DNA of 64,000 nucleotides from Candidatus Magasanikiibacteriota bacterium (GTDB taxonomy: Bacteria; Patescibacteriota; Patescibacteriia; Magasanikbacterales; UBA922). Below the pieces are notes generated by a model. That model did no database searches, had not been told where the DNA came from, and was given only the letters and a program-made list of their open reading frames with translations. The DNA lies in contig DOMK01000001.1 of assembly GCA_003510435.1 (NCBI GenBank), forward strand, positions 26,604-90,603. The letters run 5' to 3'. The position numbers and the translations under genes are program-made. Shown here piece after piece: positions 8,199 to 55,088 of the stretch (position 1 is the first letter of the stretch; every line of letters starts with the position of its first letter).

Positions 8199-9012
8199 AA
8201 TTTTTAATTATTTCTAATAATTTTTCTTTTGTCTGTAAGTGTAGTCCGTGTCTAGCATTTTTAATTATTTCTAATTTTGAATTCTTGATTAGTTTGTTCA
8301 ATTTATAAGCATCAGACACTGGCAAATAACCATCCATGGTACCCCAGACAATTAAAGTCGGTACTGTAATTTTATTAGCCTCTTCTCCTCTATCTTGACG
8401 GATAATGTTTTTAAAAATTTCCCGTTTGATTCCAGATGTGTCGTGATAATCTTTGGCACCAATGGCTTTATGAAAAATATCTTCGGCCCAGAGAGAGCCT
8501 TTTTCTATCCACGGAATTTTAAAAATTAATTTACCAAATTTTGCGCCCGCGTTAAAAATTACACGTCTGAAAGTTTTCTTTGGTCGAAACACAGCCGGCG
8601 CAGTTAAAATTAATTTATCAATCATATCTGGATATTTACTAGCAAAAACTGTGGCGACTTGACCGCCGAAACTGTGACCGAGTAATACCACGTCATTCTG
8701 AGCGGAGCGGAGCGGAGTCGAAGAATCCCCTTGTTTGTACACAAAAAAATGGGATCCTTCGACTTCACTGCGGCTCACAAGCTCACCTTCGTTTCGCTCA
8801 GGATGAAGTAGTGATTCGATTTTATTTTTTACAAATTCAACATAATCCTCTACTCCCCAGACTTTATCTGGACATGGTTCATCACCAAAGCAAGGTAATT
8901 CAATAATTTGAATATCAAAATCATTACTGGCTAATTCAGCAAATTCGTTCCAAGTCGCTTTGTTTCCTCCCCAACCGGGAAGGATGATTAATTTTGATTT
9001 TAAATTATTCAT
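8188..9012 (-). CDS. alpha/beta-fold hydrolase carrying an in-frame palindromic-element insertion
   Basis: Nucleophile elbow LLGHSFGG. The 40-aa stretch LHPERNEGELVSRSEVEGSHFFVYKQGDSSTPLRSAQNDV is encoded by the repeat at 8692-8816. Confidence 0.65.
   Translation of the reverse strand: MNNLKSKLIILPGWGGNKATWNEFAELASNDFDIQIIELPCFGDEPCPDKVWGVEDYVEFVKNKIESLLHPERNEGELVSRSEVEGSHFFVYKQGDSSTPLRSAQNDVVLLGHSFGGQVATVFASKYPDMIDKLILTAPAVFRPKKTFRRVIFNAGAKFGKLIFKIPWIEKGSLWAEDIFHKAIGAKDYHDTSGIKREIFKNIIRQDRGEEANKITVPTLIVWGTMDGYLPVSDAYKLNKLIKNSKLEIIKNARHGLHLQTKEKLLEIIKNFVN
8692..8816. repeat. family-A palindromic element (GTCATYCTGAGCGGAGCGGAGCGGAGTCGAAG...CGCTCAGGATGA), inserted in frame
   Basis: Terminal inverted repeats gtcattctgagcg/cgctcaggatga and inner gtcgaagaatcccc/gggatccttcgac. 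Near-identical left half at 44340-44432. Confidence 0.7.
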
Positions 9013-28021: not shown

Positions 28022-28029
28022 ATACAGTT

Positions 28030-28260: not shown

Positions 28261-29196
28261 ATGAATTCCACGACTAAACTGCGGAGAATGACGATGAAGC
28301 GTTGCTTGTCAGAGCAGTTCAACATCCTGATGGATGAATTGGCCTCCATTGGTATGGCTGGCCTCTTCTGCCTCATCATCGGGATGGCCAAGAGCAAGTC
28401 GCAATTGGCCAGGTTCCACAACGAACTCAAGCCCAACCAGCGTCTCGTGCGTGGAGATTATATCATGCTCGAGGACTGGTGGGAGGCCTCGTATGAAAAG
28501 GCCAGAGGAGAACTCACTGAAGTGGCTAGAGAGAAGTTGCAAGAAGTGATTCTTCTCTCCTATCGCAACGAGCACAGTGCTGCGAATCTGAGCCACTACT
28601 ACGAACGGAAAATTAACGAGGAACGTTGGAGTAGAGAACATCCGAAAACCCCGCTTGCAACTTCTAGCGTCAACCTCGTGCTCTCTTGCCCCGAACGTGA
28701 CGGGCATGGCTACCACCACTTTCGCGCGTTCATGTTTAATGTAGAATTTGAAGTCAGTTGTACTTTTCTGGATAGCACACTACTAGTTCATATGTGCATC
28801 AAGAGAAATAAACTGACCGAAAATCTCGTACACAGGATTCTGACGTCCAAGCTGGTTAATGCCAGTTTCGGACATACAGGAGTGTATGTAAATAGTGGTG
28901 ATGAGCTGACCTTCAGGTTCGATCTCGGGGCTGATATAGGTAGGCGCTTGAAGGAGATGATCTCGGCATTTGATAAATCCGAGGGCGCTCACCGACGTGC
29001 TGACGTAGTGGCCATGGACACTTTTGCACATGAGGTTGGAAGAAACCTCATTGACGTCTGTGACCTTGAGCTGGATGGGCTCTACGCTGTAGTGCTGTTT
29101 GTCGCAGATGACCCACGTTGTCTGCAGTCAACGGTATTCGAGGATGGCGCACCGCACGCCAGGCATCGGGTCTGGTGCCATCGCACCAACGCCTAA
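28261..29196 (+). CDS. hypothetical protein (311 aa) encoded on a compositionally foreign GC-rich island; no recognisable domain
   Basis: Long ORF with GC-rich codon usage unlike all neighbours. Lies between a consensus promoter and two intrinsic terminators. Opposite-strand ORFs here look like GC-composition artefacts. Confidence 0.55.
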   Translation: MNSTTKLRRMTMKRCLSEQFNILMDELASIGMAGLFCLIIGMAKSKSQLARFHNELKPNQRLVRGDYIMLEDWWEASYEKARGELTEVAREKLQEVILLSYRNEHSAANLSHYYERKINEERWSREHPKTPLATSSVNLVLSCPERDGHGYHHFRAFMFNVEFEVSCTFLDSTLLVHMCIKRNKLTENLVHRILTSKLVNASFGHTGVYVNSGDELTFRFDLGADIGRRLKEMISAFDKSEGAHRRADVVAMDTFAHEVGRNLIDVCDLELDGLYAVVLFVADDPRCLQSTVFEDGAPHARHRVWCHRTNA

Positions 29197-29235
29197 GACC
29201 ACAGAAGACTTTACAACTCGGAGGATGTGAAGTGA

Positions 29236-29306
29236 CACGGGCGACCTATGACACCCCACAGGTCGCCCGTTCAAAAAAACAGATATTGTTAAATGTCTGT
29301 TTTTTA
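29236..29306 (+). terminator. tandem intrinsic terminators (ACGGGCGACC...GGTCGCCCGT then AAAAAAACAGA...TCTGTTTTTT)
   Basis: Two perfect hairpins, the second followed by a T-run, immediately 3' of the island ORF. Confidence 0.65.
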
Positions 29307-29328
29307 ATATTACATTTTATTATAAATT

Positions 29329-29751
29329 TTATTTCAAAGTAATAATATAAGCTCCACCAGCAATCATGGCTGCACCCATTACACTGCGCCAAGTGAGGCC
29401 CTCACCCAAAAACAAAGCCGCGAGAATAATAACAAAAATTATACTAAGACGGTCAATGGCGACCACTTTTCCAGCCATACCATATTTAAGCGCAAAAAAA
29501 TAAAATAACCAGGATAGTGCGCCGGCAATACCAGATAAAGTAATTAATAACCAATCTTTACCATTTAAAGAATGAAAATTAAAACCATTAAACTTTTTTA
29601 AAGTTAGAGCGACCAGAAATAGAAAAATTGCCATGATAATTGAGCGAATCGTAGTTGCCAGTGTAGAATCAATTGTCTTGAGACCAAGTTTGCCAAAGAT
29701 TGCTACGGCTGCGGCAAAGATGGCAGATAAAAATGCATATAATAACCACAT
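29329..29751 (-). CDS. small 4-TM EamA/DMT-superfamily half-transporter-like protein
   Basis: 140 aa, four hydrophobic helices with an EamA-like pattern (AIFGKLGLK ... IIFVIILAALFLGE). Confidence 0.5.
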   Translation of the reverse strand: MWLLYAFLSAIFAAAVAIFGKLGLKTIDSTLATTIRSIIMAIFLFLVALTLKKFNGFNFHSLNGKDWLLITLSGIAGALSWLFYFFALKYGMAGKVVAIDRLSIIFVIILAALFLGEGLTWRSVMGAAMIAGGAYIITLK

Positions 29752-31775: not shown

Positions 31776-32257
31776 AAAGTTGATTAATAAATTATAAATT
31801 AAGATGATGGTATTATACTATAATTAACTCAAAAGAAACAATATTCGTGGGGATAAAAAAACACTCACCAATCTCCTTGAACTAATTCCATAATATAGAA
31901 TCAATTCAAGTGCGGTGAGTGTTTTTTACACTACCCCAACCCACCATCCCACTGGATAGCGGGGTTGGCAGCTCTTCCACAACTAATGATGGTTCCGGTC
32001 TAGACGACCGGGTAGACCAACGTGTGGTCGGGGAAGAACACTTTCTTTTGTACCATCCCCTCCGACATCTCCACCCAACCTGTGGCGTTGAACTGATGAT
32101 GACCTTCTTGGGTCAACAACAGTTTCTCATAAATTGTTCCATCTGGGTGTTCACCCTGACGAAACTTGCCGTTGATAGGCAATTGACCAAAGCTCATATC
32201 CATGAATAAACCATACGGTAGTTTGAGTAATATATTTTATATTAATTTTAAATTTTG

Positions 32258-37008: not shown

Positions 37009-37401
37009 CTAATTTAGTGAATTTTTAAGTAATTTTAGTTGTGTTTTTAAACTTCCATCCAAAATTTTATCTTCAGTTTTGACTGACACACCACCAAGTA
37101 AATTTGTATCAATAGTTTCAATCGCTTCTACTTGATTACCAAAAATTGATTTAATTTTTTCTAAAGTATTTTTATCTAATTTTCTAGCTGACTTAACTTC
37201 TATCTCTATTACCCCAGCCTGTTTTTTGGCGTATTTTTCAAATTCTTTAATAATATTGTCAGATTGTTTTAATTTTTGATTAGCAACTAAAATAGTGACA
37301 AACTTTTTTAAAGCATTGTTTAATTTTTCGCCTTTAAGTTCTTTTGTGCTATCATACAAGGCTTCGGCGTATTGTTTGTTGCTAATTTTTTTCTTTGACA
37401 T
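37009..37401 (-). CDS. atpH: F-type ATP synthase delta (OSCP) subunit
   Basis: Helical N-domain and C-terminal LLGGVSVKTEDKILDGSLKTQL. Start moved to MSKKKIS because upstream codons are repeat-derived. Confidence 0.7.
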   Translation of the reverse strand: MSKKKISNKQYAEALYDSTKELKGEKLNNALKKFVTILVANQKLKQSDNIIKEFEKYAKKQAGVIEIEVKSARKLDKNTLEKIKSIFGNQVEAIETIDTNLLGGVSVKTEDKILDGSLKTQLKLLKNSLN

Positions 37402-37410
37402 AATCTCGAG

Positions 37411-37520
37411 CCAAAGCGAGAGATCCCTTTTCATTGGGTTTAACTTCGCTTTATTTTAAATATTGTTTAATGTGTTGGAAAGGGATTCCTCTCCGTCAGC
37501 TGACGGATCGGAATGAACGA
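37411..37520. repeat. family-B palindromic element between atpF and atpH; supplies the last codons of atpF
   Basis: taatctcgagccaaagcgagagatcccttttcattgggtttaacttcgctttattttaaatattgtttaatgtgttggaaagggattcctc... Confidence 0.65.
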
Positions 37521-38083
37521 AGAGTTTCCTCAATCAAAGCCACATCTTTCTTATCATCCAATTTTTCATTCATTATTTTTTCTACTGCAGCGATAATAAG
37601 ATTAACAGTTTCTTTCTTAATTTCAGACATCATATTTTCTTTTTCTGTTTGGATATTGCGTTTGGCCTGATCAATTAACATTTCAATTTCTTTTTTAGCT
37701 TTTTCTTTCATGTCAACTGATAATTTTTCTGCTTCAGTGTGTGATTTTTCAATAATTTTATTCGCTTCCACCTTAGCTTCATCCAATTTTTCTTGAAACT
37801 TAACTTCGCTCATTTGCAAATTGGTTTCAACAGCCTTAGCATTATCAATACTGTCGTCAATCAATTTTTTGCGTTCTTCCATGGTCTTGGTCAATGGTTT
37901 TAAAATCAAAAACCAAACGATTCCGGCTACGATAGCAAAGTTTAATAATTGAAAACCAAATAATTGAGCATTGATACCGAGTGAAGCAGCAACACCTTCA
38001 TCACCAGCTGGTTGGGTAGTGTGTTCAGCTGTGGCCACAATTGGTTCTTCTGATGTTGCGTAAACATTTTCTATTAAAAACAT
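37496..38083 (-). CDS. atpF: F-type ATP synthase subunit b
   Basis: Single N-terminal TM (FAIVAGIVWFLIL) followed by a long charged helix. Confidence 0.7.
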   Translation of the reverse strand: MFLIENVYATSEEPIVATAEHTTQPAGDEGVAASLGINAQLFGFQLLNFAIVAGIVWFLILKPLTKTMEERKKLIDDSIDNAKAVETNLQMSEVKFQEKLDEAKVEANKIIEKSHTEAEKLSVDMKEKAKKEIEMLIDQAKRNIQTEKENMMSEIKKETVNLIIAAVEKIMNEKLDDKKDVALIEETLRSFRSVS

Positions 38084-39417: not shown

Positions 39418-39516
39418 AAATTCTTTTTTGTCACCCTGAATTTATTTCAGGGTCTTTTATATATTTTATTATCTTTTTTGAGAAAGATGCTGAAATAAAT
39501 TCAGCATGACAGTGTT

Positions 39517-40477: not shown

Positions 40478-41359
40478 TTATTTTATATTAGTAAATAAGT
40501 TTTTGGCATTGTTTACACTCAGTTCCATAATTTCTTCTACAGATTTTTGTTTTATTTCTGCCATTTTTTTAGCCACTTCTTCTACCATCCAGGGTTCACA
40601 TCTTTTACCTCTATAAGCCTGTGGGGATAAATATGGTGCATCAGTTTCAATTAAAAATCTATCTAGGGGTATATTTTTTGCTACTTCTAATAAATCTATA
40701 GTTGGTTGTGGGTTTGTTTTGCGAGCAGGAAAAGTTAATACACCGGTAAAGCCGAGGTATAAACCAAGATCAATAAATTGTTGGGCATTTTCCCAGTTTG
40801 AGGAATAACAATGTACTACGCCAGTGATCGGTGATCCCTGATCACTGGTCACTAATTTTAAATATTCAAGAAGTTCATTATATGCATCCCGACAATGGAA
40901 TACAACGGGAAGATTGTGTTTTTTAGCAAACTTTATTTGTTTACCCAAAATATCTTTTTGCTTGTCTAAAATCTTGTCAGAATTTTGTCCCTCAGGCACA
41001 TGATAAAGTTCCAAACCACACTCCCCGACTCCAATTACCTTTTTACTTTTGGCCAGTTCGTCATAATAAGTTTCATCAAAATCTTCATCGCGAGAAATAA
41101 AATTAGATTCTTCTTCGTCTACTTCGGTTGCATGCAAGTGAATGGGGTGCAAACCAATGGTAGCATAAATATTGTCATACTGCTCTGCCAATTCCATAGC
41201 TTTTTTTGAGGTATCCATCTGTGTACCGACCGCGTTCATTATTACATTCTTTTTAATACAACGAGAGATGACCTCATTACGGTCATCTTTGTAGCCTTGA
41301 AATTGAATATGACAGTGAGTGTCAATCAGAGTGCTCATAATTTTGTTATATTTGTTCAA
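40478..41359 (-). CDS. tatD: TatD-family metal-dependent deoxyribonuclease with an in-frame mini-palindrome insertion
   Basis: IDTHCHIQF ... GVGECGLE ... VVFHCRDA ... HCYS ... ETDAPYL. Extra LVTSDQGSPITGV encoded by the palindrome at 40821-40852. Confidence 0.8.
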   Translation of the reverse strand: MNKYNKIMSTLIDTHCHIQFQGYKDDRNEVISRCIKKNVIMNAVGTQMDTSKKAMELAEQYDNIYATIGLHPIHLHATEVDEEESNFISRDEDFDETYYDELAKSKKVIGVGECGLELYHVPEGQNSDKILDKQKDILGKQIKFAKKHNLPVVFHCRDAYNELLEYLKLVTSDQGSPITGVVHCYSSNWENAQQFIDLGLYLGFTGVLTFPARKTNPQPTIDLLEVAKNIPLDRFLIETDAPYLSPQAYRGKRCEPWMVEEVAKKMAEIKQKSVEEIMELSVNNAKNLFTNIK

Positions 41360-41479
41360 TCATTTCATTTCTACTAGCCTGCCAATCTAACACGGAAAGA
41401 CAGAAAAATATATTTAGTATAATAAATAAAATACCAATAATTATTGCAATTATAATAAGTGAATGATAATTTTTTTGAG

Positions 41480-41690
41480 TTTTATTCATAATAATCAACT
41501 TGACTAGCTTTACTTTTTAAAGCTTCTACTTTGTCTGAATAATTTTCAAAATATACTAATTTGTTTCTTTTGTATTTTTTAGACAAAGCATTATCATAAG
41601 TACCATCTTTATGTTGTTTACCTCTTTTTATTAAACTATCGGTATATCCCACTTATAAAACATTGTATATACTCGCCATAATATAAATAT
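41480..41690 (-). pseudogene. decayed GIY-YIG nuclease gene (paralog of 47930-48274), interrupted by an in-frame stop
   Basis: Minus-strand translation MASIYNVL*VGYTDSLIKRGKQHKDGTYDNALSKKYKRNKLVYFENYS... parallels YYVYIMASITKVLYVGYTDCLIKRGRQHKTGTYDNAFSKKYKTNKLVYFESYY. Confidence 0.55.
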
Positions 41691-41783
41691 AAGAAGTTCT
41701 ACTCCTTAATAATTTCATACAAAAGTTATGTATAAGAAAGACCCCTCCTCACTCTTTCAAGTTCGTTCGGGGTGGTGCAGTGA

Positions 41784-42335
41784 CTATATTGGTGTAGACG
41801 AAGTAATAACACCCTCAAGATTATCTATTGTATTTTGAATCATTTTTAAAGCATCGGGTAATAATGGCATAAGAATATCAGCCATACCAACAGCATATGG
41901 AGCGACAACGGAATCTTCTATATAATTCATAATAGTGGCTGATAAAGGAAAAATATCTATAAAATATAAAATTAAACCAATGGTAATAACACCTTCAAAA
42001 AATCCTAATATAAGCCCCAGGAAACGATTAATACCTTTTATAAATGGTAGATTAGTCAAGACACTGAGCATTTTATCTACAATCCAAAAACCAAAACCAA
42101 CCAAGCGATTGATAATAACAAAAGCAATAATAAACATTAAAACTTTTGGGCCATTGCCTTCCCAGCCAGTAATTCCCATTAACCAATTGGCCATTGGTTC
42201 ATAATAACGTGAGGCTAAATAGGCACCGAGCACTGTACCCAAGAGTGAACCAAAAGTATGAATTAAACCAAACCAAAAGCCAAACATGGCAAACCCACCA
42301 ATAATGATGAGAAGAATTACGTCAAATAATCCCAT
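41784..42335 (-). CDS. cvpA: CvpA-family membrane protein
   Basis: LFDVILLIIIGGFAMFGFWFGLIHTFGSLLGTVLGAYLASRYY. Confidence 0.6.
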   Translation of the reverse strand: MGLFDVILLIIIGGFAMFGFWFGLIHTFGSLLGTVLGAYLASRYYEPMANWLMGITGWEGNGPKVLMFIIAFVIINRLVGFGFWIVDKMLSVLTNLPFIKGINRFLGLILGFFEGVITIGLILYFIDIFPLSATIMNYIEDSVVAPYAVGMADILMPLLPDALKMIQNTIDNLEGVITSSTPI

Positions 42336-42342
42336 ATATTTT

Positions 42343-42404
42343 AGGAATTAGGAATAAGGGCTAGAAGCGGGTTTTCTCGCCTCTAGTCCCAATTCCCTAT
42401 TCCT
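42343..42404. repeat. family-C REP-like palindrome (AGGAATTAGGAATAAGGGCTAGAAGCG...CGCCTCTAGTCCCAATTCCCTATTCCT)
   Basis: See 24868-24922. Confidence 0.55.
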
Positions 42405-42407
42405 ATT

Positions 42408-43901
42408 TTATTTCTCCAGTCTAGGAAACAATATCTCACCTTTGTTTATTATACCACCTTCTCTCAATTTTCCCCAGTCGCGTGAAGTATCAGTCGTGCC
42501 TAATTGTTTTAAAATCTTTTCTGCGGTCTCAGGAATTATTGGTAATAAGGCAACAGCAATGTGACGTAAACATTCGGCCAGTTGATAAAGTAAACCAGAA
42601 ATGTCTTCACCTGCTTTGGCTTTTTCCCATGGTTTTTCATCAGTAATAATTTTATCAATTACCGAAACCATAACGTCGATAATTTTGATTGAAGCTTCAA
42701 AATTATAATCTTCTATTGATTTAGGATACCACCCTGGACTCCAGAATTGATTAAATTCCGTTTGTAAAATCCCGTTAAAAACTTTTGGAATTTTACCATT
42801 ACTATATTTCTCTAACATCGTCAAAATTCTACTCGTCAAATTCCCTATTCCATTTACCAAACGGGCTGTGTAAAAATCTTCAAATCTTTCAATAGAAAAA
42901 TCACCGTCTTCATAAGATGGTAAGCCACCAAGCAAAAAATAACGTGTAGCATCTGTGCCATATTTATCAACAATTTTGTATGGCTCAACTACATTACCAA
43001 GGCTCTTGCTCATTTTTTGTCCTTCAGATGTAATAAAACCATGAATAAAGATTTGTTTGGAAGTTGGTAAGCCGGCTGACAACAGCATGGCTTGCCACAT
43101 GGCAGATTGTTGACGTAAATTATCTTTACCAGCCACCTGATAACCTGGCCAAAAATTATTAAAATTATTTTCATCTTCTGGCCAACCTAATGTGGAAATA
43201 TAGTTTATAAGAGCATCAAACCAAACATACATCACATGATCTGGATCATTTGGTACAGGAATACCCCAAGGCATTTTGGCTTTTAATCTAGAAATACTAA
43301 AATCTTCTAGACCACGCTCTACAAAGTTTTTTATTTCTAATTGACGATGAGCAGGTACAACAAATTCTGGATTAGATTGATATAAATCTAAAAGCGATTC
43401 TTGATATTTAGAAAATCTAAAAAAATAATTTTCTTCTTCAATTAATTCAATATTTAAATTTGGATGCACTGGACATTTGTCATCTACCAGTTCTGAATCA
43501 GTTTTTTCCAATTCGCAACCTACACAATATTTTACTTTGTAATTCTTTTTGTAAATATCACCATTCTTTTCACAACGCAACCAAAATTCTTGAGTTGCTT
43601 TGATATGATGTGGGTCGGTGGTACGAATAAAATGAGTATAGCTCAAATTCAAGGCTTGTTTTAGAGCATCAAACTTGGCTGCGTACTCATCACAATATTT
43701 TTGTGGGTCAATACCAAGTTCTTCGGCTTTACGATAAATTTTTAGACCATGTTCATCTGTGCCGGTATTAAAAATTACTTCTTCACCAAGTAATTTATGA
43801 TAACGAGCGATCACATCGGCTTGAATAATTTCCAAAGCAAAACCAATATGCGGTTCGGCATTGACGTATGGTAGGGTGGTTGTTAAATAAAAGTTTTTCA
43901 T
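42408..43901 (-). CDS. metG: methionyl-tRNA synthetase
   Basis: HIGH-class motifs (PYVNAEPHIGF ... KMSKSLGN) and CxxC zinc knuckles (CVGC ... CPVH). Confidence 0.9.
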   Translation of the reverse strand: MKNFYLTTTLPYVNAEPHIGFALEIIQADVIARYHKLLGEEVIFNTGTDEHGLKIYRKAEELGIDPQKYCDEYAAKFDALKQALNLSYTHFIRTTDPHHIKATQEFWLRCEKNGDIYKKNYKVKYCVGCELEKTDSELVDDKCPVHPNLNIELIEEENYFFRFSKYQESLLDLYQSNPEFVVPAHRQLEIKNFVERGLEDFSISRLKAKMPWGIPVPNDPDHVMYVWFDALINYISTLGWPEDENNFNNFWPGYQVAGKDNLRQQSAMWQAMLLSAGLPTSKQIFIHGFITSEGQKMSKSLGNVVEPYKIVDKYGTDATRYFLLGGLPSYEDGDFSIERFEDFYTARLVNGIGNLTSRILTMLEKYSNGKIPKVFNGILQTEFNQFWSPGWYPKSIEDYNFEASIKIIDVMVSVIDKIITDEKPWEKAKAGEDISGLLYQLAECLRHIAVALLPIIPETAEKILKQLGTTDTSRDWGKLREGGIINKGEILFPRLEK

Positions 43902-43991
43902 AACATTGATTTCACAGATTAGAAATGATTACACTGATTAAATCTATAAATTTTTTAATAACCTTATTCGTATTATTCTGTTTACTGAATA

Positions 43992-44732
43992 CTACTTACT
44001 GATTACTATTACAAACTCCCCTTTTTCTGAAATATTCATCGCCAATATTTCTTTAATTGTCCCGCGATAAATTGTTTCAAATTTTTTAGTTAATTCACGA
44101 CACACACACATTTGTCTGTCTTCTTCTAAAACTTCAGCCAATTCTCCTAAACATTTTTTTATTCTGTGATTTGATTCATAAAATGCGACTGTGTATTCTG
44201 CCTTCGCCACATCAGCAAAAAAAGTTTTACGACCTTTTTTGTGTGGCGGAAAACCCATGAATACAAATTTGTCGGTTGGAAAGCCTGAAATACTTAAAGC
44301 CGTTATTACTGCACTTGGTCCTGGAATTGGCTCTACTGTGTCATCCTGAGCGGAGCGGAGCGGAGTCGAAGGATCCCCTTCTTCAACAGGGGGATATTTC
44401 GACTTCGCCCTCCGGGCTTCGCTCAATATGACGTTTATGAGTTGGTTTCCTGGATCTGATATACCTGGCGTACCAGCATCAGTTACTAATGCCAAATTTT
44501 TACCTTGTTCCAACAATTCCTTGATCTCACGAACTTTCTTTTCTTCACTATGTTGATGATAAGAAATAGTTTTGGTTTTAATCTCAAAATGATTCAACAA
44601 ATTTAGTGTTACTCTAGTATCTTCACACAAAATAAAATCCACACTTTTTAATATTTTAAGTGCACGTAAAGTGATGTCGCCTAGATTACCAATTGGCGTG
44701 GCGACTATGTATAATTTACCTGTATTTTCCAT
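43992..44732 (-). CDS. rsmI: 16S rRNA (cytidine1402-2'-O)-methyltransferase RsmI, carrying an in-frame family-A element
   Basis: LYIVATPIGNLGDITLRALKIL ... ILCEDTRVT. Inserted RRAKSKYPPVEEGDPSTPLRSAQDDTVEPIPGPS is encoded by the repeat. Confidence 0.85.
   Translation of the reverse strand: MENTGKLYIVATPIGNLGDITLRALKILKSVDFILCEDTRVTLNLLNHFEIKTKTISYHQHSEEKKVREIKELLEQGKNLALVTDAGTPGISDPGNQLINVILSEARRAKSKYPPVEEGDPSTPLRSAQDDTVEPIPGPSAVITALSISGFPTDKFVFMGFPPHKKGRKTFFADVAKAEYTVAFYESNHRIKKCLGELAEVLEEDRQMCVCRELTKKFETIYRGTIKEILAMNISEKGEFVIVISK
44340..44432. repeat. family-A palindromic element inside rsmI
   Basis: gtcatcctgagcggagcggagcggagtcgaaggatcccc...gggggatatttcgacttcgccctccgggcttcgctcaatatgac. 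Confidence 0.7.
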
Positions 44733-44801
44733 GGTTTAATTGTATCAAAAAAGCCCTCTTAAATCAAGGAGCTTTGAATAATTAAAAATATTGATATAGA
44801 A

Positions 44802-45185
44802 TTATATTAATGTTATGTCGCCTAAATAAATATCTTTAGATCTTGGTTTAATAGGAGATTCTGAAAAACAAAATTCAACTTTTACTCTAAATTGATTATT
44901 AGTTTTTGTGAATAATGGTACATCAGTTGTTAGACTGATTATTCCAGCCATTATCCCTCCGTTGCTTTGTATTAGTTGTTCTTTGGTGCCAACAAATTTA
45001 TCTGATGAATTAAGCAAATATGTTTTGAAGTCTTCTTTATCTTTAAAAAAAGCATTTCTAGATAAACTTCCTAAATACATAATGTATTCTCCATTTATCA
45101 TGTCGCGCATATTATCAGAGCTAGAACGCTCTGCATTTTCAATTAAGTCGGCTGGTAACCTGTCAATTTCTAGAAAATCAGACAT
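44802..45185 (-). CDS. hypothetical protein in the Fe-S cluster operon
   Basis: ORF in operon spacing. Start moved to MSDFLEID so it abuts rather than overlaps the ferredoxin gene. Confidence 0.4.
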   Translation of the reverse strand: MSDFLEIDRLPADLIENAERSSSDNMRDMINGEYIMYLGSLSRNAFFKDKEDFKTYLLNSSDKFVGTKEQLIQSNGGIMAGIISLTTDVPLFTKTNNQFRVKVEFCFSESPIKPRSKDIYLGDITLI

Positions 45186-45186
45186 A

Positions 45187-45372
45187 TTATTCTTCAATTT
45201 CAATGGCCCCAACTGGACAAGCACCAGCGGCATCTTTAATAGTTTGTTCGTCATCCCCTGGTGGAACGACTTCTACTGCTTTACCATCCTCATCCCATTT
45301 AAAACTGGCTTCAGCCAAGACAATACATGTACCACAGCTGATACATTTTTCTTTGTTTACTTTACACTTCAT
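45187..45372 (-). CDS. small 4Fe-4S ferredoxin
   Basis: 61 aa: CISCGTC ... CP (CxxCxxC...CP cluster motif). Confidence 0.75.
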   Translation of the reverse strand: MKCKVNKEKCISCGTCIVLAEASFKWDEDGKAVEVVPPGDDEQTIKDAAGACPVGAIEIEE

Positions 45373-45418
45373 ATTAAATGCTTAAAATGCCTGAAAGGCC
45401 AAAAAGGCTTGAGAGGCT

Positions 45419-45724
45419 TTATAATTTAGTAAGTTCATCAATGTTTAAATCTAGTTCTTTTGTATTTGCGTCAGAAAAATCAGTCGGATTCTCAATTTCT
45501 GTCATCACATTTTCTGGAGTAATATTATGAATAACTATATCATCTACTCGGATATTAGGTGATCTATGACAATGTCCAGTACAAGTACAAATATCTAAAC
45601 AGATTTTATCATTACATTCACCTTTTTGCAAACCAGTCTCCATTTCAATTTTGTGCAATATTGCATCCGAACCTTTGGCAGAACAAGTTATACCTTTGCA
45701 GATTTTTATTTGTTTCATAATCAT
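45419..45724 (-). CDS. thioredoxin-like [2Fe-2S] ferredoxin (NuoE-like fold)
   Basis: ICKGITCSAKGSDAI ... CLDICTCTGHC spacing. Start moved to an internal Met because the upstream 39 codons are encoded by repeat 45721-45835. Confidence 0.5.
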   Translation of the reverse strand: MIMKQIKICKGITCSAKGSDAILHKIEMETGLQKGECNDKICLDICTCTGHCHRSPNIRVDDIVIHNITPENVMTEIENPTDFSDANTKELDLNIDELTKL

Positions 45725-45835
45725 TCCGAGTGTAGCGAGGAATCCCTTTTCCTTGGGGTTAACATCGGTTTTATTTAATGCTTTTTTTAATGAATCAAAA
45801 AGGGATCCCTCACCCTTCGGGATTCGGGATGACGG
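45721..45835. repeat. family-B palindromic element (diverged copy)
   Basis: tcattccgagtgtagcgaggaatcccttttccttggggttaacatcgg...aaaagggatccctcacccttcgggattcgggatga. Confidence 0.6.
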
Positions 45836-45837
45836 TG

Positions 45838-46524
45838 TCAACCATAATACTTCTCCATATAAAATCTAATCAATTCTTCAATTTCTGGAATGGCTTCGGG
45901 ATCACCCACACCAACTTTTAATTTCTTTTGCACATCTTCCAAATTTTGCGCGCCTTCTAGTACCGCTTCTTCTATATCATGATCAGTAATATTTAGAACT
46001 TTATCAATAATTTTACTTCCAGCTGTCACAATTCTACCGTGTTGTCCAGTTTTACGAAAATAATCATTAACTGCGGCTTGTAAAGCTTTGTCACCCAAGA
46101 CTGAACAGTGTACTTTTCTATCTGGTAAGCCACCAAGCCGAGCTAAAATATCTTGTGGTTTTATTTTTAAAGCGTCTTCGAGTTTCATTCCACCCTTTTC
46201 AACGATCATTTCTGATAAAACCGAAGTGGAGGCAATGGCTGAACCACAACCAAAAGTGCGCCAGCGACAGTCCTTTATTTTTTCACTTTTTTCATCTACT
46301 AAAATCCACAGTACCATTTCATCACCACAAGCTGGCGAACCTACGCGTCCCATTCCATCATATTTAAACTTTTCTTCCTCGCCCTGTTTCATAAAATTTC
46401 GCGGATTAAAAAAATGATCCTTAACAATGTCAGAATACAACCAACCAGAACCATCATTACTGCGGATATCTACCGGTTTAGTTAAATTCTTAGTTTTGGT
46501 TACTTTTTTAATTATTTTTTTCAT
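45838..46524 (-). CDS. NifU/IscU-family Fe-S cluster assembly scaffold protein
   Basis: GSPACGDEMVLWI ... FGCGSAIASTS (three scaffold cysteines) plus a C-terminal extension. Confidence 0.75.
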   Translation of the reverse strand: MKKIIKKVTKTKNLTKPVDIRSNDGSGWLYSDIVKDHFFNPRNFMKQGEEEKFKYDGMGRVGSPACGDEMVLWILVDEKSEKIKDCRWRTFGCGSAIASTSVLSEMIVEKGGMKLEDALKIKPQDILARLGGLPDRKVHCSVLGDKALQAAVNDYFRKTGQHGRIVTAGSKIIDKVLNITDHDIEEAVLEGAQNLEDVQKKLKVGVGDPEAIPEIEELIRFYMEKYYG

Positions 46525-46616
46525 AGACTATTGGATACTAAATACGAAATTTACAAAAATACGAACTGAGGTGCAATAATTTTTGTAATTTTGTACTTTT
46601 TGTATTTCGTATCCTA

Positions 46617-47858
46617 TTATTTATACTTAGCATGTTTTTTATTTCCCATTTGTACAGGACTAATTTCCCTTAACTTTTCAACTATGCCCGGCAAATATTT
46701 CATGACATAATCAATATCAGCTTTGGTATTGCAATGCCCAAGAGTAAAACGCAAGCTACCATGAGCATATTCATAAGGTAAACCAAGCGCAGTGAGAACA
46801 TGTGATGGTTCTAGTGAGGTAGAAGTACAAGCTGAACCAGTGGAACAGCAAATGCCATAAGCATCTAAATATAATAACATAGCTTCACCTTCTACATCCA
46901 TAAAAGTGACATTCAAATTATTTGGCAGACGTGAGTTTTCATTTCCCAAAGAGGCGCCGTTCAATTTTATTTTATCAATTTTTTTACTAATTTGGTCGTA
47001 AAAATAATCACGCAATTCAACTAAACGCATGTTTTCATCTTGTCTATTTTCCTGAGCCAATTCTAACGCTTTGGTAAAGCCGACAATTCCAGCTAGATTC
47101 TCTGTACCACTGCGTAAATTCATTTCCTGACCACCACCATAGATAAGTGGCACGATATTCACTCCACGTCGCTTGTAGAGCATTCCTACGCCTTTGGGGC
47201 CATATATTTTGCTAGCATTGAGTGTCAATAGATCCACATGGAGCTTTTCCACGTCCAATTCTAAAACTCCGCCAGCTTGGCAAGCATCTGTATGAAAAAA
47301 TGGATATATAGAATTATTTTCTTTGCGATATTTTAAAATTTCTCTTCCAATATCAGCGATTGGTTCTACCGTACCAATTTCATTATTGGCATACATAATA
47401 GAAATCAAAATTGTGTCAGGACGAATCTCAGCTCGAACTTTTTTTGGTGAAATAAAACCCCGTGAATCTGGTTCTAAATATGTCACAACAAAACTTTCTT
47501 TTTCTAAGTGTTCAATTGGATTTAAAACCGCATGATGTTCAATCTTCGTGGTAATAATATGTTTACCAAAATTTGCGTGTTTTCTAGTCACACCGAATAT
47601 TGCCAAATTATCTGACTCACTACCACCACCAGTAAAAATAATATTGTCTGGTAAAGCATGAATAATCTCTGCGACTTTTCTGTGACAATCATTCAGTTCG
47701 CCATTGGCAACCCGACCTGCTTCATAAAGACTACTCGGGTTACCAAAAATCTTACCATAATATGGCTTCATGACTTTTTCTACTCGTTCATCAACGTAAG
47801 TCGTAGCCGCGTGGTCTAGATAAACAAATTTTTTGGTTTTTGGTTTTGGGGGGAACAT
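46617..47858 (-). CDS. cysteine desulfurase (NifS/IscS/SufS-type class V aminotransferase)
   Basis: YLDHAATT ... TGGGSESDNLAI ... SASKIYGPKGVG ... SSTGSACTS. Start moved to MFPPKPK; the track ORF's extra 48 codons are repeat-derived and overlap the GIY-YIG gene. Confidence 0.85.
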   Translation of the reverse strand: MFPPKPKTKKFVYLDHAATTYVDERVEKVMKPYYGKIFGNPSSLYEAGRVANGELNDCHRKVAEIIHALPDNIIFTGGGSESDNLAIFGVTRKHANFGKHIITTKIEHHAVLNPIEHLEKESFVVTYLEPDSRGFISPKKVRAEIRPDTILISIMYANNEIGTVEPIADIGREILKYRKENNSIYPFFHTDACQAGGVLELDVEKLHVDLLTLNASKIYGPKGVGMLYKRRGVNIVPLIYGGGQEMNLRSGTENLAGIVGFTKALELAQENRQDENMRLVELRDYFYDQISKKIDKIKLNGASLGNENSRLPNNLNVTFMDVEGEAMLLYLDAYGICCSTGSACTSTSLEPSHVLTALGLPYEYAHGSLRFTLGHCNTKADIDYVMKYLPGIVEKLREISPVQMGNKKHAKYK

Positions 47859-47929
47859 AGTATAAATTAATCTCGAACGAAAAACAGAAAGCGAAGCGAA
47901 CTGTTTTGAGGAGAGATCTTTCTTACCTC

Positions 47930-48274
47930 TTAATTCTCTACGCGAGTAAAACCCTGCATAATATAAAAATTTTTCTTTACTTGTAAATATAAATCTATCC
48001 AATCTGGATTATCTTTTTCAATTAATTTGATCTTCTTCTCTTTTCTATATTTTTTAATTTGACTTTCTCTTTTTAGAGATTCTTCTTTTGTATAATAACT
48101 TTCAAAATAGACTAACTTATTAGTTTTATATTTTTTAGAAAAAGCATTATCGTATGTACCTGTTTTGTGTTGTCTACCTCTTTTTATAAGACAATCTGTA
48201 TAACCTACATACAATACTTTCGTTATACTTGCCATTATATAGACGTAGTAATTTCTCCTCCTTAAATTGTTCAT
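47930..48274 (-). CDS. stand-alone GIY-YIG nuclease-domain protein (UPF0213-like)
   Basis: YYVYIMASITKVLYVGYTDCLIKRGRQHKTG ... YFESYYTKEESLKRESQIKKY = GIY-YIG core. Confidence 0.7.
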   Translation of the reverse strand: MNNLRRRNYYVYIMASITKVLYVGYTDCLIKRGRQHKTGTYDNAFSKKYKTNKLVYFESYYTKEESLKRESQIKKYRKEKKIKLIEKDNPDWIDLYLQVKKNFYIMQGFTRVEN

Positions 48275-48327
48275 AGTGAGATTAGTTTTAAGAAAGATCT
48301 CTCGTCGCCCTTCGGGCTCACTCGAGA

Positions 48328-48729
48328 TTAATTTATCACTTCACTCAACTTCAATTCACCTAAATACTTAACTAATTTTTCATTAACCATTTTAAAAACT
48401 TTTTGAGAGTCACATTTTCCTTCTTTGGTGCAATGACAGCCTTTTTTTAGACAATTGGTGACAGCATACTCCCCTTCCAGTGCTTCGACAATATTTTTGA
48501 TAGTTAGATTTTTAAATTCATTATTTAGTTGATATCCACCCTGTGCGCCCTTTACTGATTTTACAATCTTGGCTTCACGAAGTTTTTTGGCAATTCTTTG
48601 TAAAAATAAAAAAGATATTTTTGAATCTTTTGAAAAATTTCGTAGACTTAATAATTCCCCACTCTTTGATTTTGTTAGAGCAGAGATGAGTTGGATACCA
48701 TAGTCTACTTCTTTGGTGAATTGCAACAT
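48328..48729 (-). CDS. Rrf2-family transcriptional regulator (IscR/SufR-like)
   Basis: wHTH DYGIQLISALTKSKSGELLSLRNFSKDSKISFLFLQRIAKKLREAKIVKSVKGAQGGYQL plus CxxxxxxC...C cluster ligands. Confidence 0.75.
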   Translation of the reverse strand: MLQFTKEVDYGIQLISALTKSKSGELLSLRNFSKDSKISFLFLQRIAKKLREAKIVKSVKGAQGGYQLNNEFKNLTIKNIVEALEGEYAVTNCLKKGCHCTKEGKCDSQKVFKMVNEKLVKYLGELKLSEVIN

Positions 48730-48804: not shown

Positions 48805-48832
48805 ATTATACCACTCTAGTATGATATGTCAA
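48805..48832 (-). promoter_or_regulatory. consensus sigma70 promoter TTGACA-N16-TATAAT for the Fe-S operon
   Basis: Minus-strand read: ctcTTGACAtatcatactagagtggTATAATttt. Confidence 0.55.
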
Positions 48833-53699: not shown

Positions 53700-53708
53700 A
53701 TTTTATTG

Positions 53709-53848
53709 TTCCTCCCCTATAAGGGGAGGCGGACACGAAGTGCCAGTGGGGTCGTTTGACTCTCCAAATTCTCACTTGTTATTCTGAATTAAAATGTTTT
53801 GTGACACGAATGACCCCCTCCTACCTCCCCCTCATAGGGGGAGAGCTA
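53709..53848. repeat. family-F palindromic element (CCTCCCCTATAAGGGGAGG ... CCTCCCCCTCATAGGGGGAG)
   Basis: Two G/C palindromes around an AT-rich core; the right end supplies the last codons of the downstream oxidoreductase gene. Related in-frame copy at 25816-25850. Confidence 0.55.
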
Positions 53849-55088
53849 ATGAATTTCCCGCTGTATACCCAGTACCCCAAGCGACGGTTAGATTATAACC
53901 CCCAGTAATACCATCAATATCCAAAATCTCTCCGGCAAAGTATAAATTATCTATTAATTTTGATTGCATAGTCTTCGGATCAATTTCTTTTAAATCAACC
54001 CCGCCACTCGTGACAATGGCTTGCTCAAATCCCATATCCCCCACCACTGTTAATTTTAAATCATGTAAAATTTCTAGTATTTTTTTTCTTTCTTCCTTGC
54101 TAATACTGTTAGCTAATTTTTCTGGATAAATATCGGCCAAGTCCAACATAATGCCAACAAATTTACTTGGTAGAAAATTATCCCAAATATTTTTAATAGT
54201 TTTTTTACCATTATCATGAAAGATTTTTTGTAAAAATAAATCTAATTGTTTTTCATTTTGTTTGGGTTTAAAATTTATTCTTAATTCTACATTGCCATTT
54301 TTTCTGGCAGTAATAACCTGCTTACTCAAATTCAAAATCATCGGACCACTAATACCAAAATGAGTAAATAAAATATCACCAATTTTTTTAGTAATTTTCT
54401 TATTATTTTGATAAAGACTGACTTCTATATCACTAAAACTTAAACCTTGTAAATCTTTTACAAAAGTTTCTTTTATTTTTAATGGTACAAGCGACGGAAT
54501 GGTTGGTGTAATCGTATGACCAAGATTTTTGGCAAATTTAAATCCATCACCAGTCGAGCCAGTACCAGGATAAGATAATCCCCCAGTAGCAATTAACAAA
54601 TTGGTTGTATTAAATAATTCTCCATTTTCAAGTTCAACGCCAGTAATATTAGTTTTGTCTTTAAAAATATTTTTTACTTGAGCTAAAGTTTTAATTTCTA
54701 CTTTATTATTTTTTAAATATTTTATTAGAGAATTAACAATCTCTTGGGACGAATCACTCCTAGGAAAAACCCGTCTATCATCTTCAATTTTTAATTTAAC
54801 ACCCAAATTTTCAAAGAAATTCATAATTTCCTGTGGAGGAAAATTGTTTAGAGCAGAAAATAAAAAAGCGCCATTATCACCATAGGCTTTGATTAGTTCT
54901 CTAATATTTGATTCATCGTGAGTCAGGTTGCAACGCGTATGTCCAGAAATCAAAATTTTTCTGCCTAATTCTTTATTTTTTTCCAATAACAAAACTTTGG
55001 CTCCGCGTTCACTGGCTATACCAGCCGCCACCATACCAGCTGCGCCACCACCGATGACGATTAGATCATATTGATTTTTCATACACAT
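53832..55088 (-). CDS. HI0933/BaiN-family NAD(FAD)-utilising dehydrogenase
   Basis: YDLIVIGGGAAGMVAAGIASERGAKVLLLEKN dinucleotide-binding motif; 418 aa. Confidence 0.75.
   Translation of the reverse strand: MCMKNQYDLIVIGGGAAGMVAAGIASERGAKVLLLEKNKELGRKILISGHTRCNLTHDESNIRELIKAYGDNGAFLFSALNNFPPQEIMNFFENLGVKLKIEDDRRVFPRSDSSQEIVNSLIKYLKNNKVEIKTLAQVKNIFKDKTNITGVELENGELFNTTNLLIATGGLSYPGTGSTGDGFKFAKNLGHTITPTIPSLVPLKIKETFVKDLQGLSFSDIEVSLYQNNKKITKKIGDILFTHFGISGPMILNLSKQVITARKNGNVELRINFKPKQNEKQLDLFLQKIFHDNGKKTIKNIWDNFLPSKFVGIMLDLADIYPEKLANSISKEERKKILEILHDLKLTVVGDMGFEQAIVTSGGVDLKEIDPKTMQSKLIDNLYFAGEILDIDGITGGYNLTVAWGTGYTAGNSLALPL

What the first reader, a model, noticed from the sequence alone, without database searches (positions are those of the whole stretch)
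41480..48274. GIY-YIG mini-nuclease gene inside the Fe-S assembly operon plus a decayed paralog 6 kb away
A 114-aa GIY-YIG protein gene sits between the Rrf2 regulator and the cysteine desulfurase gene, flanked by short palindromes (47880-47960, 48290-48330). A second copy at 41480-41690 is clearly alignable by eye at the nucleotide level over ~200 bp but has an in-frame TAA and a truncated 3' part. Stand-alone GIY-YIG genes are classic homing-endonuclease-like selfish elements. One intact plus one dead copy suggests recent mobility.
Basis: partly seen in the sequence, partly recalled or inferred. Interest (0 to 1): 0.55.

Follow-up and report, generated by a model that had tools for sequence, protein, structure and literature searches.

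The report
Ssn-type nuclease cassette with hairpin repeats
The small nuclease gene wedged into the iron-sulfur operon is a member of the recently described Ssn family of single-strand DNA cutters, carried between its own hairpin repeats like a tiny insertion sequence. Comparison with related genomes shows that both the intact copy and the dead copy are insertions into junctions that are compact in relatives.

Summary
An intact 114-aa GIY-YIG gene (47930-48274, minus strand) lies between Rrf2 and the cysteine desulfurase gene. A second copy (41482-41718) is 75.5% identical over 245 nt. It has an in-frame TAA, has lost the catalytic Glu and is truncated at the 3' end.

It is not a classic homing endonuclease. 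It fits the Ssn family (SsnA, cd10448; Chenal et al. 2025): single-domain nucleases that cut single-stranded DNA beside hairpin repeats (NTS/SRM), which typically flank the gene in inverted orientation. Cassette A (47862-48336) has this architecture, and copy B keeps its 5' hairpin. Homologues 45% identical to the window protein carry the canonical Neisseria-type NTS on both sides.

Relatives show the compact junctions: Rrf2 overlaps IscS, and CvpA abuts TatD. Related cassettes occupy other operon junctions. The copies are old (dS about 1.0-1.4) and the intact one is under purifying selection (dN/dS 0.09), so mobility is not recent.

The window also holds four gene-less hairpin pairs, two of them in frame inside genes. 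One lies in an RsmI loop that is occupied by different hairpin types across Magasanikbacteria.

Verdict: a new member of a known kind, of moderate interest.

The parts
47862..48336 (-). Whole cassette A: 5' hairpin repeat (SRM), ssn gene, inverted 3' hairpin repeat. It fills the Rrf2-IscS junction.
   Evidence: Nested perfect inverted repeats are at 47862-47876/48322-48336 and 47911-47925/48289-48303. The junction is an 11-nt gene overlap in relatives L183 and L005.
47930..48274 (-). Intact ssn-like GIY-YIG gene (114 aa).
   Evidence: Pfam PF01541 E 2.7e-10. All invariant family residues are present (Y22 G24 R32 H36 E70 N89 W92 D94). It is 45% identical to a homologue flanked by canonical NTS repeats. 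dN/dS is 0.09 against the same-site copy in L003.
48289..48336 (-). 5' SRM-like hairpin of cassette A: ATAAATTA[ATCTC]GAG..CGA[GAGAT]CTTTCTTA. Its outer end supplies the last two codons and the stop codon of Rrf2.
47862..47925 (+). 3' SRM-like hairpin of cassette A, inverted relative to the 5' one, with the same ATCTC/GAGAT basal stem and CTTTCTTA tail. It ends 4 nt before the IscS ATG.
41482..41718 (-). Decayed ssn copy B, with TAA at 41653-41655, the catalytic Glu lost and the C-terminal third missing.
   Evidence: The sequence is identical in L175 and L176.
41733..41777 (-). 5' SRM-like hairpin retained by copy B: CACC[ACCCC]GAAC..GGA[GGGGT]CTTTCTTA. The stem is kept through compensatory changes.
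41360..41783 (-). Segment inserted between the CvpA stop and the TatD start (copy B plus a 50-aa ORF of unknown status).
   Evidence: In relative L182 (IscS 96% aa identity) the CvpA stop and the TatD ATG are 1 nt apart.
48805..48832 (-). Consensus sigma-70-type promoter (TTGACA-16-TATAAT with TG) upstream of Rrf2. It is the likely source of transcription through the cassette.
   Evidence: One search gives a 12/12 match. No terminator-like site was found on the gene strand between Rrf2 and IscS. Only 25 nt separate the 5' hairpin from the ssn ATG.
44339..44433 (.). Gene-less SRM pair (GTCAT...ATGAC), in frame inside the RsmI gene.
   Evidence: Fold z-score about -5. The pair corresponds to residues 104-132, which have no counterpart in PDB RsmI 3kwp..
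8691..8808 (.). Gene-less SRM pair, in frame inside an alpha/beta-hydrolase ORF (8188-9012).
37397..37521 (.). Gene-less SRM pair between atpF and atpH. One member has the same ATCTC/GAGAT stem as cassette A.
   Evidence: A pair with similar sequences sits at the same junction in L182.
39430..39516 (.). Gene-less SRM pair between the ATPase_gene1 gene and atpB.
45802..45834 (-). Single SRM at the NifU stop / 2Fe-2S ferredoxin start.
   Evidence: An SRM lies at the same junction in L182.

Best explanation
The gene is a Patescibacteria (Candidatus Magasanikbacteria) member of the Ssn family of single-domain GIY-YIG nucleases. It sits between two inverted copies of its cognate hairpin repeat (SRM), forming an insertion-sequence-like cassette.

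Shown here:
1. The cassette architecture.
2. Its recurrence around close and distant homologues.
3. Covariation that preserves the basal hairpin stem.
4. Compact, unoccupied junctions in relatives at both sites.
5. Other operon junctions occupied by related cassettes.
6. Strong purifying selection on the intact copy.
7. Decay of the second copy.
8. Further gene-less hairpin pairs in the same window.

Taken from the literature on homologues, not tested here: the protein binds the hairpin only as single-stranded DNA, in one orientation, and cuts a few nucleotides upstream of it. In this layout that places one cut at each outer edge of the cassette, on opposite strands.

Inferred:
- The gene has no room for a promoter of its own and is read through from the promoter upstream of Rrf2.
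- Cassettes and gene-less hairpin pairs spread or are exchanged between hairpin-bearing sites. I think this happens through host recombination or replication acting on single-stranded DNA nicked by the nuclease, rather than through a self-contained transposase reaction.
- The cassette at the Rrf2-IscS junction is now a stable, selected resident.
For: Family and architecture:
- PMC11893778 describes Ssn/SsnA and the NTS-ssnA-NTS layout.
- The window protein is a 114-aa GIY-YIG domain only.
- Homologues occur in many phyla. In 44 of 77 loci the two flanks form inverted repeats that score above all controls.
- L157, L150, L119 and L163 carry GTCATTCCCGCGAAGGCGGGAATCC-type repeats on both sides, which fit the Neisseria NTS consensus. 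Their proteins align with the window protein; identity to the L157 protein is 45%.
- A generic SRM pattern lies next to the gene in the expected orientation in 52 of 80 loci, and on both sides in 26 of 80.
- The close CPR homologues share one variant: TTWAT-stem-GAG..CGA-stem-CTTTC. The 5-bp basal stem is 98.8% paired, with 16 double-sided changes; 0 of 500 shuffles reached this.

Insertion:
- None of 80 IscS loci from metagenomes has the gene.
- Rrf2 and IscS overlap in L005 and L183. CvpA abuts TatD in L182.
- Related cassettes lie at IscS|NifU, purQ|purC, ?|NTP-transferase and ACS|POR junctions.

Selection and age.

Promoter.

Gene-less pairs.
Against: - The published SRM search pattern finds nothing in the window and matches only 3 of 80 homologue loci. 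The flanking hairpins here have TTAAT where the Neisseria repeat has the GTCAT said to be needed for recognition, and their loops are 22-38 nt rather than 5 nt or fewer.
- I could not compare the protein directly with the characterised N. meningitidis SsnA or with CDD cd10448.
- As RNA, the flanking hairpins do not fold significantly better than shuffles (z -1.55, -0.82, 0.03).
- The stem positions used for the covariation count were located partly by complementarity, which favours pairing.
- The GTCAT-type solo repeats in the window differ from the TTAAT/CTTTC type that flanks the gene, so their cognate nuclease may be a different paralogue outside the window.
- Nothing here shows nuclease activity or movement directly.
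Confidence: 0.8

Rival explanations
1. It is a free-standing homing endonuclease of the phage Seg/Tev kind. It cuts double-stranded DNA at the empty Rrf2-IscS junction and is copied in by repair, and it spread recently.
For: - The gene is present at the same junction in two non-sister lineages (window and L003), while lineages in between have the compact junction.
- The two copies are each other's best database hits.
- A dead copy lies elsewhere, as expected in a homing cycle.
Against: - There is no DNA-binding domain: 114 aa, with the nuclease domain covering residues 8-81.
- There are no phage matches and only 4 plasmid records.
- The cassette carries its own inverted hairpins, which homing genes do not need.
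- Characterised family members do not cut double-stranded DNA.
- There is no co-conversion signal in the first 30 IscS codons: window-L003 72.8% against window-L183 70.4%.
- dS of 1.0-1.4 between copies means spread was not recent.
Confidence: 0.06
2. It is an autonomous insertion sequence. The GIY-YIG protein is itself the transposase, acts on the two hairpin ends, and also mobilises the gene-less hairpin pairs as miniature non-autonomous elements.
For: - It has terminal inverted repeats, occupies variable junctions and has compact empty sites.
- Gene-less pairs have the same end-to-end geometry.
- The set of pairs differs between the window and L182.
- One RsmI loop is occupied by different hairpin types in different lineages.
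- The authors of PMC11893778 note the IS-like layout.
Against: - No target-site duplication is visible.
- There are no near-identical copies.
- From established knowledge, GIY-YIG enzymes hydrolyse DNA without a covalent intermediate, so rejoining would need host factors.
- The intact copy is conserved like a host gene.
- There is no presence/absence variation among assemblies of the same population.
Confidence: 0.25
3. It is an ordinary housekeeping repair nuclease (UPF0213/YhbQ-like) that happens to lie in the operon, and the hairpins are transcription or mRNA-stability signals unrelated to the protein.
For: - There is weak similarity to UPF0213 structures 1zg2 and 1ywl (E 3e-4 and 3e-3).
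- The gene is co-oriented with and close to its neighbours. The upstream neighbour is co-oriented in 61 of 72 loci.
- It is under purifying selection.
Against: - The hairpins travel with the gene into unrelated operons and keep their inverted arrangement.
- The gene is absent from 80 related isc loci.
- No terminator-like site was found on the gene strand.
- Similarity to hairpin-flanked homologues (about 1e-20) far exceeds that to UPF0213 proteins.
Confidence: 0.05

Closest known systems
Ssn nucleases (SsnA, CDD cd10448 GIY-YIG_unchar_3) with NTS/SRM hairpin repeats, Chenal et al., Nat Commun 2025 (PMC11893778)
   Same: - It is a small single-domain GIY-YIG protein.
- The gene is flanked on both sides by inverted hairpin repeats, and further copies of such repeats are scattered in the genome.
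- Homologues across many phyla include some with repeats that fit the Neisseria NTS consensus.
   Different: - The host is Patescibacteria, which that paper does not mention.
- The flanking repeat is a variant: TTAAT instead of GTCAT, long structured loops and a CTTTC tail. It fails the published search pattern.
- The protein has a C-terminal tail about 15 aa longer than most family members aligned here.
- The gene sits inside operons and is probably transcribed by read-through.
- The repeats often lie inside coding sequences, against 2% reported for N. meningitidis.
- Activity was not tested.
REP/BIME repeats and their RAYT (IS200/IS605-type Y1) transposases
   Same: A single nuclease gene is flanked by inverted hairpin repeats that also occur in many gene-less copies. 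The protein recognises the hairpins in single-stranded DNA. The system appears domesticated and vertically inherited.
   Different: The enzyme is unrelated (HUH/Y1 with a covalent intermediate, against hydrolytic GIY-YIG). REPs are extragenic, whereas here pairs lie in frame inside genes.
Free-standing GIY-YIG homing endonucleases of phages (Seg proteins, I-TevI type)
   Same: It has a GIY-YIG catalytic domain and is a small gene inserted between host genes in the same orientation. Its presence at a fixed junction is patchy.
   Different: Those enzymes carry a C-terminal DNA-binding domain (over 200 aa in total, from general knowledge), cut double-stranded DNA at the empty site and have no flanking hairpins. 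No phage homologues were found here.
UPF0213 / YhbQ-type small GIY-YIG proteins (PDB 1zg2, 1ywl)
   Same: The size and fold class are the same.
   Different: Sequence similarity is only marginal (E 3e-4). They are not known to be associated with hairpin repeats.
Rickettsia palindromic elements (from my own knowledge; not tested)
   Same: Palindromic repeats are inserted in frame into protein-coding genes and tolerated as extra loops.
   Different: No sequence comparison was made. A link between those elements and Ssn nucleases is not established in the papers I could search.

Membership tests
Ssn (SsnA, cd10448) | Single-domain GIY-YIG protein of about 94 aa with no extra DNA-binding module | tested here: met
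   The protein is 114 aa and PF01541 covers residues 8-81. Family members in the alignment are 92-122 aa.
Ssn (SsnA, cd10448) | Intact GIY-YIG catalytic residues (two Tyr, Arg, His, Glu, Asn) | tested here: met
   Copy A has Y22, G24, R32, H36, E70 and N89, all invariant in alignment A2. Copy B fails this test: stop at the second Tyr, Glu lost, tail missing.
Ssn (SsnA, cd10448) | Homology to characterised SsnA (blastp E<1e-10 to the N. meningitidis protein; CDD assignment cd10448) | not testable with these tools
   Neither the NMB0047 sequence nor CDD was available. Indirect evidence: 45% identity to the L157 protein, whose gene is flanked on both sides by repeats fitting the NTS consensus.
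Ssn (SsnA, cd10448) | Gene flanked 5' and 3' by hairpin repeats in inverted orientation | tested here: met
   Two nested perfect 15-nt inverted repeats. The same layout is seen in L003, L005, L009, L177 and L178, and in 44 of 77 distant loci.
Ssn (SsnA, cd10448) | Flanking repeats match the published SRM pattern HGTCWYN(0-2)YYVSBRHN(0-5)WNVSBRGN(0-2)RNCYNB | tested here: not met
   0 matches in the window. The pattern does match canonical NTS but only 3 of 80 homologue loci. Here the lead is TTAAT and the loops are 22-38 nt.
Ssn (SsnA, cd10448) | Additional copies of the repeat dispersed in the same genome | tested here: met
   Nine further SRM-like hairpins in 64 kb, as four pairs and one single. 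With the strict GTC-lead pattern there are 7 hits against 1.7 expected, of which 5 are sequence-recognisable SRMs (four GC-rich).
Ssn (SsnA, cd10448) | Cuts only single-stranded DNA, strand-specifically, just upstream of the repeat | not testable with these tools
   Biochemistry is needed. It has been shown for four homologues in PMC11893778.
Free-standing GIY-YIG homing endonuclease | Nuclease domain joined to a sequence-specific DNA-binding domain | tested here: not met
   Only 33 residues lie beyond the domain, and they align with the family's conserved C-terminal helix.
Free-standing GIY-YIG homing endonuclease | Resides in phage genomes, mobile genomes or introns | tested here: not met
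   No match in 50,697 phage records and 4 of 72,556 plasmid records.
Free-standing GIY-YIG homing endonuclease | Presence/absence at one fixed site among relatives, with co-conversion of flanks | tested here: inconclusive
   Presence at the Rrf2-IscS junction is patchy, but the IscS 5' end shows no excess similarity.
Insertion sequence / transposon | Terminal inverted repeats | tested here: met
Insertion sequence / transposon | Target-site duplication | tested here: inconclusive
   I saw no direct repeat at the edges of cassette A, copy B or the gene-less pairs. Some single-strand transposons make none.
Insertion sequence / transposon | Several near-identical copies in a genome | tested here: not met
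   There are two copies at 75.5% nt identity, dS about 1.0. Only 64 kb of the genome was seen.
UPF0213 / YhbQ | Clear sequence membership | tested here: inconclusive
   The best PDB matches, 1zg2 and 1ywl, reach only E 3e-4 and 3e-3. NCBIfam has no model that matches.

The most novel reading that the evidence does not exclude
In Patescibacteria the hairpin-ssn-hairpin unit and its gene-less hairpin pairs are (or recently were) a mobile system. It targets gene junctions and tolerant protein loops, repeatedly hitting the same sites: the Rrf2-IscS junction and one RsmI loop. This would be direct comparative evidence that Ssn nucleases drive the spread of their repeats, and a CPR counterpart of the in-frame palindromic elements of Rickettsia.
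Probability: 0.4. Interest if true: 0.65.

Novelty: new member of a known kind. Interest (0 to 1): 0.4.

Why it matters
The Ssn paper showed the chemistry and noted the IS-like layout, but left the biology outside Neisseria open and offered no evidence that the unit moves.

This locus and its relatives give compact empty sites, alternative occupied junctions, a decayed copy and gene-less pairs that differ between genomes with dS about 0.7. That makes the mobility question testable in a lineage with tiny, streamlined genomes.

It also warns annotators that odd GC-rich peptide stretches in CPR proteins (VILSEA..., ...LRSAQDD) are repeat insertions. Gene starts and stops at such junctions may be supplied by the repeat.

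Tried and rejected
- Rfam at gathering thresholds and tRNA/tmRNA scans of the whole window found nothing.
- RNA folding of the flanking hairpins was not better than shuffles, so I do not claim an RNA element.
- The published SRM pattern gave 0 hits, so I used a looser, self-defined pattern with simulated controls. With the most relaxed lead the background is high (8 expected, 13 found), so individual hits were accepted only on sequence.
- NCBIfam has no model for the protein.
- The first family alignment was too diverse for the search for related loci.
- I tried to reach the Neisseria SsnA by searching with the L157 protein. The family is so large (7942 clusters at E<=1e-10 among the 8000 candidates scored) that no Neisseria entry appeared among the 120 listed. 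The paper's supplements are not held.
- A test for a co-conversion tract at the IscS 5' end, the signature of homing, was negative. I also withdrew the idea that the shared 'MFP' IscS start is a derived marker, because L016 and L183 have N-F/L-P there too.
- I considered that the TAA in copy B might be an assembly error or recoding. I rejected this because two other assemblies are identical and two further defects are present.
- I considered a functional link to Fe-S assembly. I rejected it because related cassettes sit in purine, nucleotide-sugar and pyruvate-oxidoreductase operons.


Full report
**1. What is in the sequence**

The window is AT-rich (about 33% GC) and nearly all genes lie on the minus strand. 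A source name on one of its proteins places it in Candidatus Magasanikbacteria, in Patescibacteria.

Downstream of a consensus sigma-70-type promoter (48832-48805, 12/12 match), the gene order on the minus strand is:
- Rrf2 regulator (48328-48729)
- a 114-aa GIY-YIG gene (47930-48274)
- IscS-like cysteine desulfurase (ATG at 47858)
- NifU
- two ferredoxins

A second GIY-YIG copy lies between cvpA and tatD at 41482-41718. It aligns to the first at 75.5% over 245 nt (E 6e-43) and 67.5% at the protein level. It is dead by three criteria:
- a TAA replaces the second motif Tyr
- the invariant Glu is lost
- the conserved C-terminal third is missing

The same sequence is found in two other assemblies, so this is not an error.

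**2. The palindromes are part of the unit**

Two nested perfect 15-nt inverted repeats bracket the intact gene. Each end is a hairpin of the form lead-[ATCTC]-GAG...CGA-[GAGAT]-CTTTCTTA. The two hairpins point towards each other. Copy B keeps the 5' hairpin with a compensated stem, ACCCC/GGGGT.

The closest homologues have the same layout at other places:
- L003: the same junction
- L005-L008: between IscS and NifU
- L009-L014: between purQ and purC
- L177: before an NTP-transferase gene
- L178: between acetyl-CoA synthetase and pyruvate oxidoreductase genes

All are on the same strand as their neighbours.

Across 17 such hairpins the 5-bp basal stem is 98.8% paired, with 16 double-sided changes. 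I located the stems partly by complementarity, although the conserved GAG/CGA and CTTTC/CCCC flanks fix the register.

**3. Identification**

A literature search found Chenal et al. 2025 (PMC11893778). According to that paper:
- The Ssn family (SsnA, CDD cd10448) consists of single-domain GIY-YIG proteins of about 94 aa that bind and cut only single-stranded DNA, in one orientation, just upstream of a hairpin repeat.
- The repeat is called NTS in Neisseria and SRM in general.
- 71% of homologues have such a repeat nearby and 42% have one on both sides.
- The authors call this layout identical to that of an insertion sequence, and they only hypothesise mobility or domestication.

Eighty homologue loci from species-representative genomes span Acidobacteriota, Bacteroidota, Ignavibacteria, Chloroflexota, cyanobacteria, Alpha-, Gamma- and Deltaproteobacteria, Firmicutes and several CPR groups.
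- In 44 of 77 loci the two flanks form an inverted repeat stronger than any control segment.
- Four loci (L157, L150, L119, L163) carry GTCATTCCCGCGAAGGCGGGAATCC-type repeats that fit the Neisseria NTS consensus and the published pattern. Their proteins align with the window protein across the whole domain; identity to the L157 protein is 45%.

Points against simple membership:
- The published pattern finds nothing in the window.
- I could not obtain the Neisseria protein or CDD for a direct comparison.

The protein matches nothing in phage records and almost nothing on plasmids. It is only marginally similar to UPF0213 structures.

**4. Both copies are insertions**

None of 80 IscS loci from metagenomes has the gene within 2.5 kb. 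Where Rrf2 is detected it abuts IscS.

Three syntenic relatives are informative:

| Relative | IscS aa identity to window | Rrf2-IscS junction | Other |
|---|---|---|---|
| L182 | 96% (dS 0.65-1.0) | holds an unrelated 331-aa gene | no ssn gene in 12.7 kb; CvpA stop and TatD ATG are 1 nt apart |
| L183 | 83% | Rrf2 and IscS overlap by 11 nt | |
| L005 | 72% | Rrf2 and IscS overlap by 11 nt | ssn cassette lies between IscS and NifU |

The 11-nt overlap in L183 and L005 looks like the ancestral compact junction.

L003 (IscS 75% identical) carries the sister cassette (77% aa identity) at the Rrf2-IscS junction. So sister cassettes occupy one junction in non-sister lineages. That requires either two gains at the same site, or one gain followed by precise losses.

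A test for co-converted flanks was negative.

**5. Age and selection**

| Comparison | dS | dN/dS |
|---|---|---|
| Window copy A vs the L003 copy | 1.36 | 0.09 |
| IscS, same two genomes | 1.8 | 0.10 |
| Copy A vs copy B | about 1.0 | 0.22 |

All assemblies of this population carry both copies unchanged. The intact gene is therefore a long-standing, selected resident. Mobility is real on the scale of species divergence but is not recent.

**6. How it most likely works**

Shown: the anatomy, the insertion status, selection, and the co-occurrence with further repeats.

From the literature: hairpin-specific single-strand cleavage upstream of the repeat.

Inferred:
- With the two repeats inverted, the predicted cuts fall at the two outer edges of the cassette on opposite strands. 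Those positions are at the Rrf2 stop and at the IscS start.
- Only 25 nt separate the 5' hairpin from the ATG, and no terminator-like site lies on the gene strand. Expression is therefore probably by read-through from the Rrf2 promoter. This fits the bias for a co-oriented upstream neighbour, seen in 61 of 72 loci.
- GIY-YIG enzymes hydrolyse DNA without a covalent intermediate (general knowledge). I therefore favour spread and exchange through host recombination or replication at nicked single-stranded hairpins, with existing repeats acting as landing sites, over a self-sufficient transposase. This step has only circumstantial support.

**7. Beyond the finding: gene-less hairpin pairs**

The window holds four gene-less hairpin pairs with the same end-to-end geometry (GTCAT...ATGAC), plus one single repeat.
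- Two pairs lie in frame inside genes: RsmI (44339-44433) and an alpha/beta hydrolase (8691-8808).
- Two pairs lie between ATP synthase genes. One of them supplies the last codons and the stop codon of atpF.

RsmI orthologues of Magasanikbacteria fall into two length classes. The long class carries inserts at one loop that are built from different repeat types in different lineages, with the right-hand edge at the same position to within one codon. A close relative has the native loop, and has a pair just after the gene instead.

The set of pairs differs between the window and L182, although the atpF|atpH pair is shared. I found no paper describing this for CPR, and none linking the Rickettsia palindromic elements with GIY-YIG nucleases.

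**8. Verdict**

The feature is real and is a new member of a known kind, the Ssn nuclease with its hairpin repeats. Its repeats are variant and its host group is new for the family. The comparative evidence shows that the unit was inserted.

The homing-endonuclease label and the claim of recency are not.

Noticed in passing
window 43992-44732 (RsmI), insert 44339-44433; loci L179-L183; alignment A6: A gene-less hairpin pair lies in frame in an RsmI loop (residues 104-132, absent from PDB 3kwp). Magasanikbacteria orthologues are either about 220-226 aa without an insert or about 240-262 aa with inserts at the same loop. The inserts are built from different repeat types (GTCATATTGAGCG.., GTCATTGCGAGC.., GTCATGCTGAATTT..), and all three inserts read at DNA level end ..ATGAC at the same position to within one codon.
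   Followed up: partly
window 8691-8808 inside ORF 8188-9012: A second gene-less hairpin pair lies in frame in an alpha/beta-hydrolase gene, just before the GHSFGG motif. It encodes HPERNEGE...DSSTPLRSAQNDV.
   Followed up: partly
window 37397-37521; L182 12283-12390: A hairpin pair lies between atpF and atpH. One member supplies the last seven codons and the stop codon of atpF, and the other extends the apparent atpH ORF. A pair with similar sequences sits at the same junction in relative L182.
   Followed up: partly
window 39430-39516: An AT-richer hairpin pair (GTCACCCTGAATTTATTTCAGGGTC / GTCATGCTGAATTTATTTCAGCATC) lies between the ATPase_gene1 gene and atpB. The same repeat type occurs in the RsmI insert of L181.
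   Followed up: no
window 45802-45834; L182 4934-4959: A single hairpin repeat lies at the NifU stop / 2Fe-2S ferredoxin start. The annotated ferredoxin N-terminus (MTPSSRIPKGEGS...) is probably repeat-encoded. L182 has a repeat of another type at the same junction.
   Followed up: partly
window 25807-25864, 53707-53768, 53800-53854: A different GC-rich palindrome family (..CCCCCT.ATAGGGGGAG..) is often preceded by GACCCCCTCC, which resembles the stem of copy B's hairpin. I did not analyse it.
   Followed up: no
window about 28000-29400, 31928-32097, 60879-61344: These stretches have much higher GC than the rest (0.49 at 28001-29000 against about 0.33). There are no Rfam or tRNA matches and their content was not examined.
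   Followed up: no
L182 1709-2704: In the closest relative, the Rrf2-IscS junction holds an unrelated 331-aa gene (weak Maf hit) preceded by a GC-rich hairpin that is not an SRM. This junction accepts different insertions.
   Followed up: partly
L131 2483-4077; L016 2314-2337: In a Moraniibacteria genome an ssn cassette with canonical-type repeats sits directly upstream of another class-V aminotransferase gene. In L016 a canonical NTS-type repeat lies 165 nt upstream of IscS. Together with the window and L005, this is a possible preference for cysteine desulfurase neighbourhoods, or it may be chance.
   Followed up: partly
L178 6208-6594: A small PDDEXK_3 nuclease gene is inserted between pyruvate oxidoreductase subunit genes, in the same contig that carries an ssn cassette one gene upstream.
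   Followed up: no
L073 1366-3135: The NifU match is split by about 1.1 kb in one metagenome contig. The content of the interruption was not examined.
   Followed up: no
window 41346-41498: A 50-aa hydrophobic ORF overlaps the end of pseudogene B and lies inside the inserted segment. It is called as a gene in other assemblies (47 aa). Its status is unknown.
   Followed up: no
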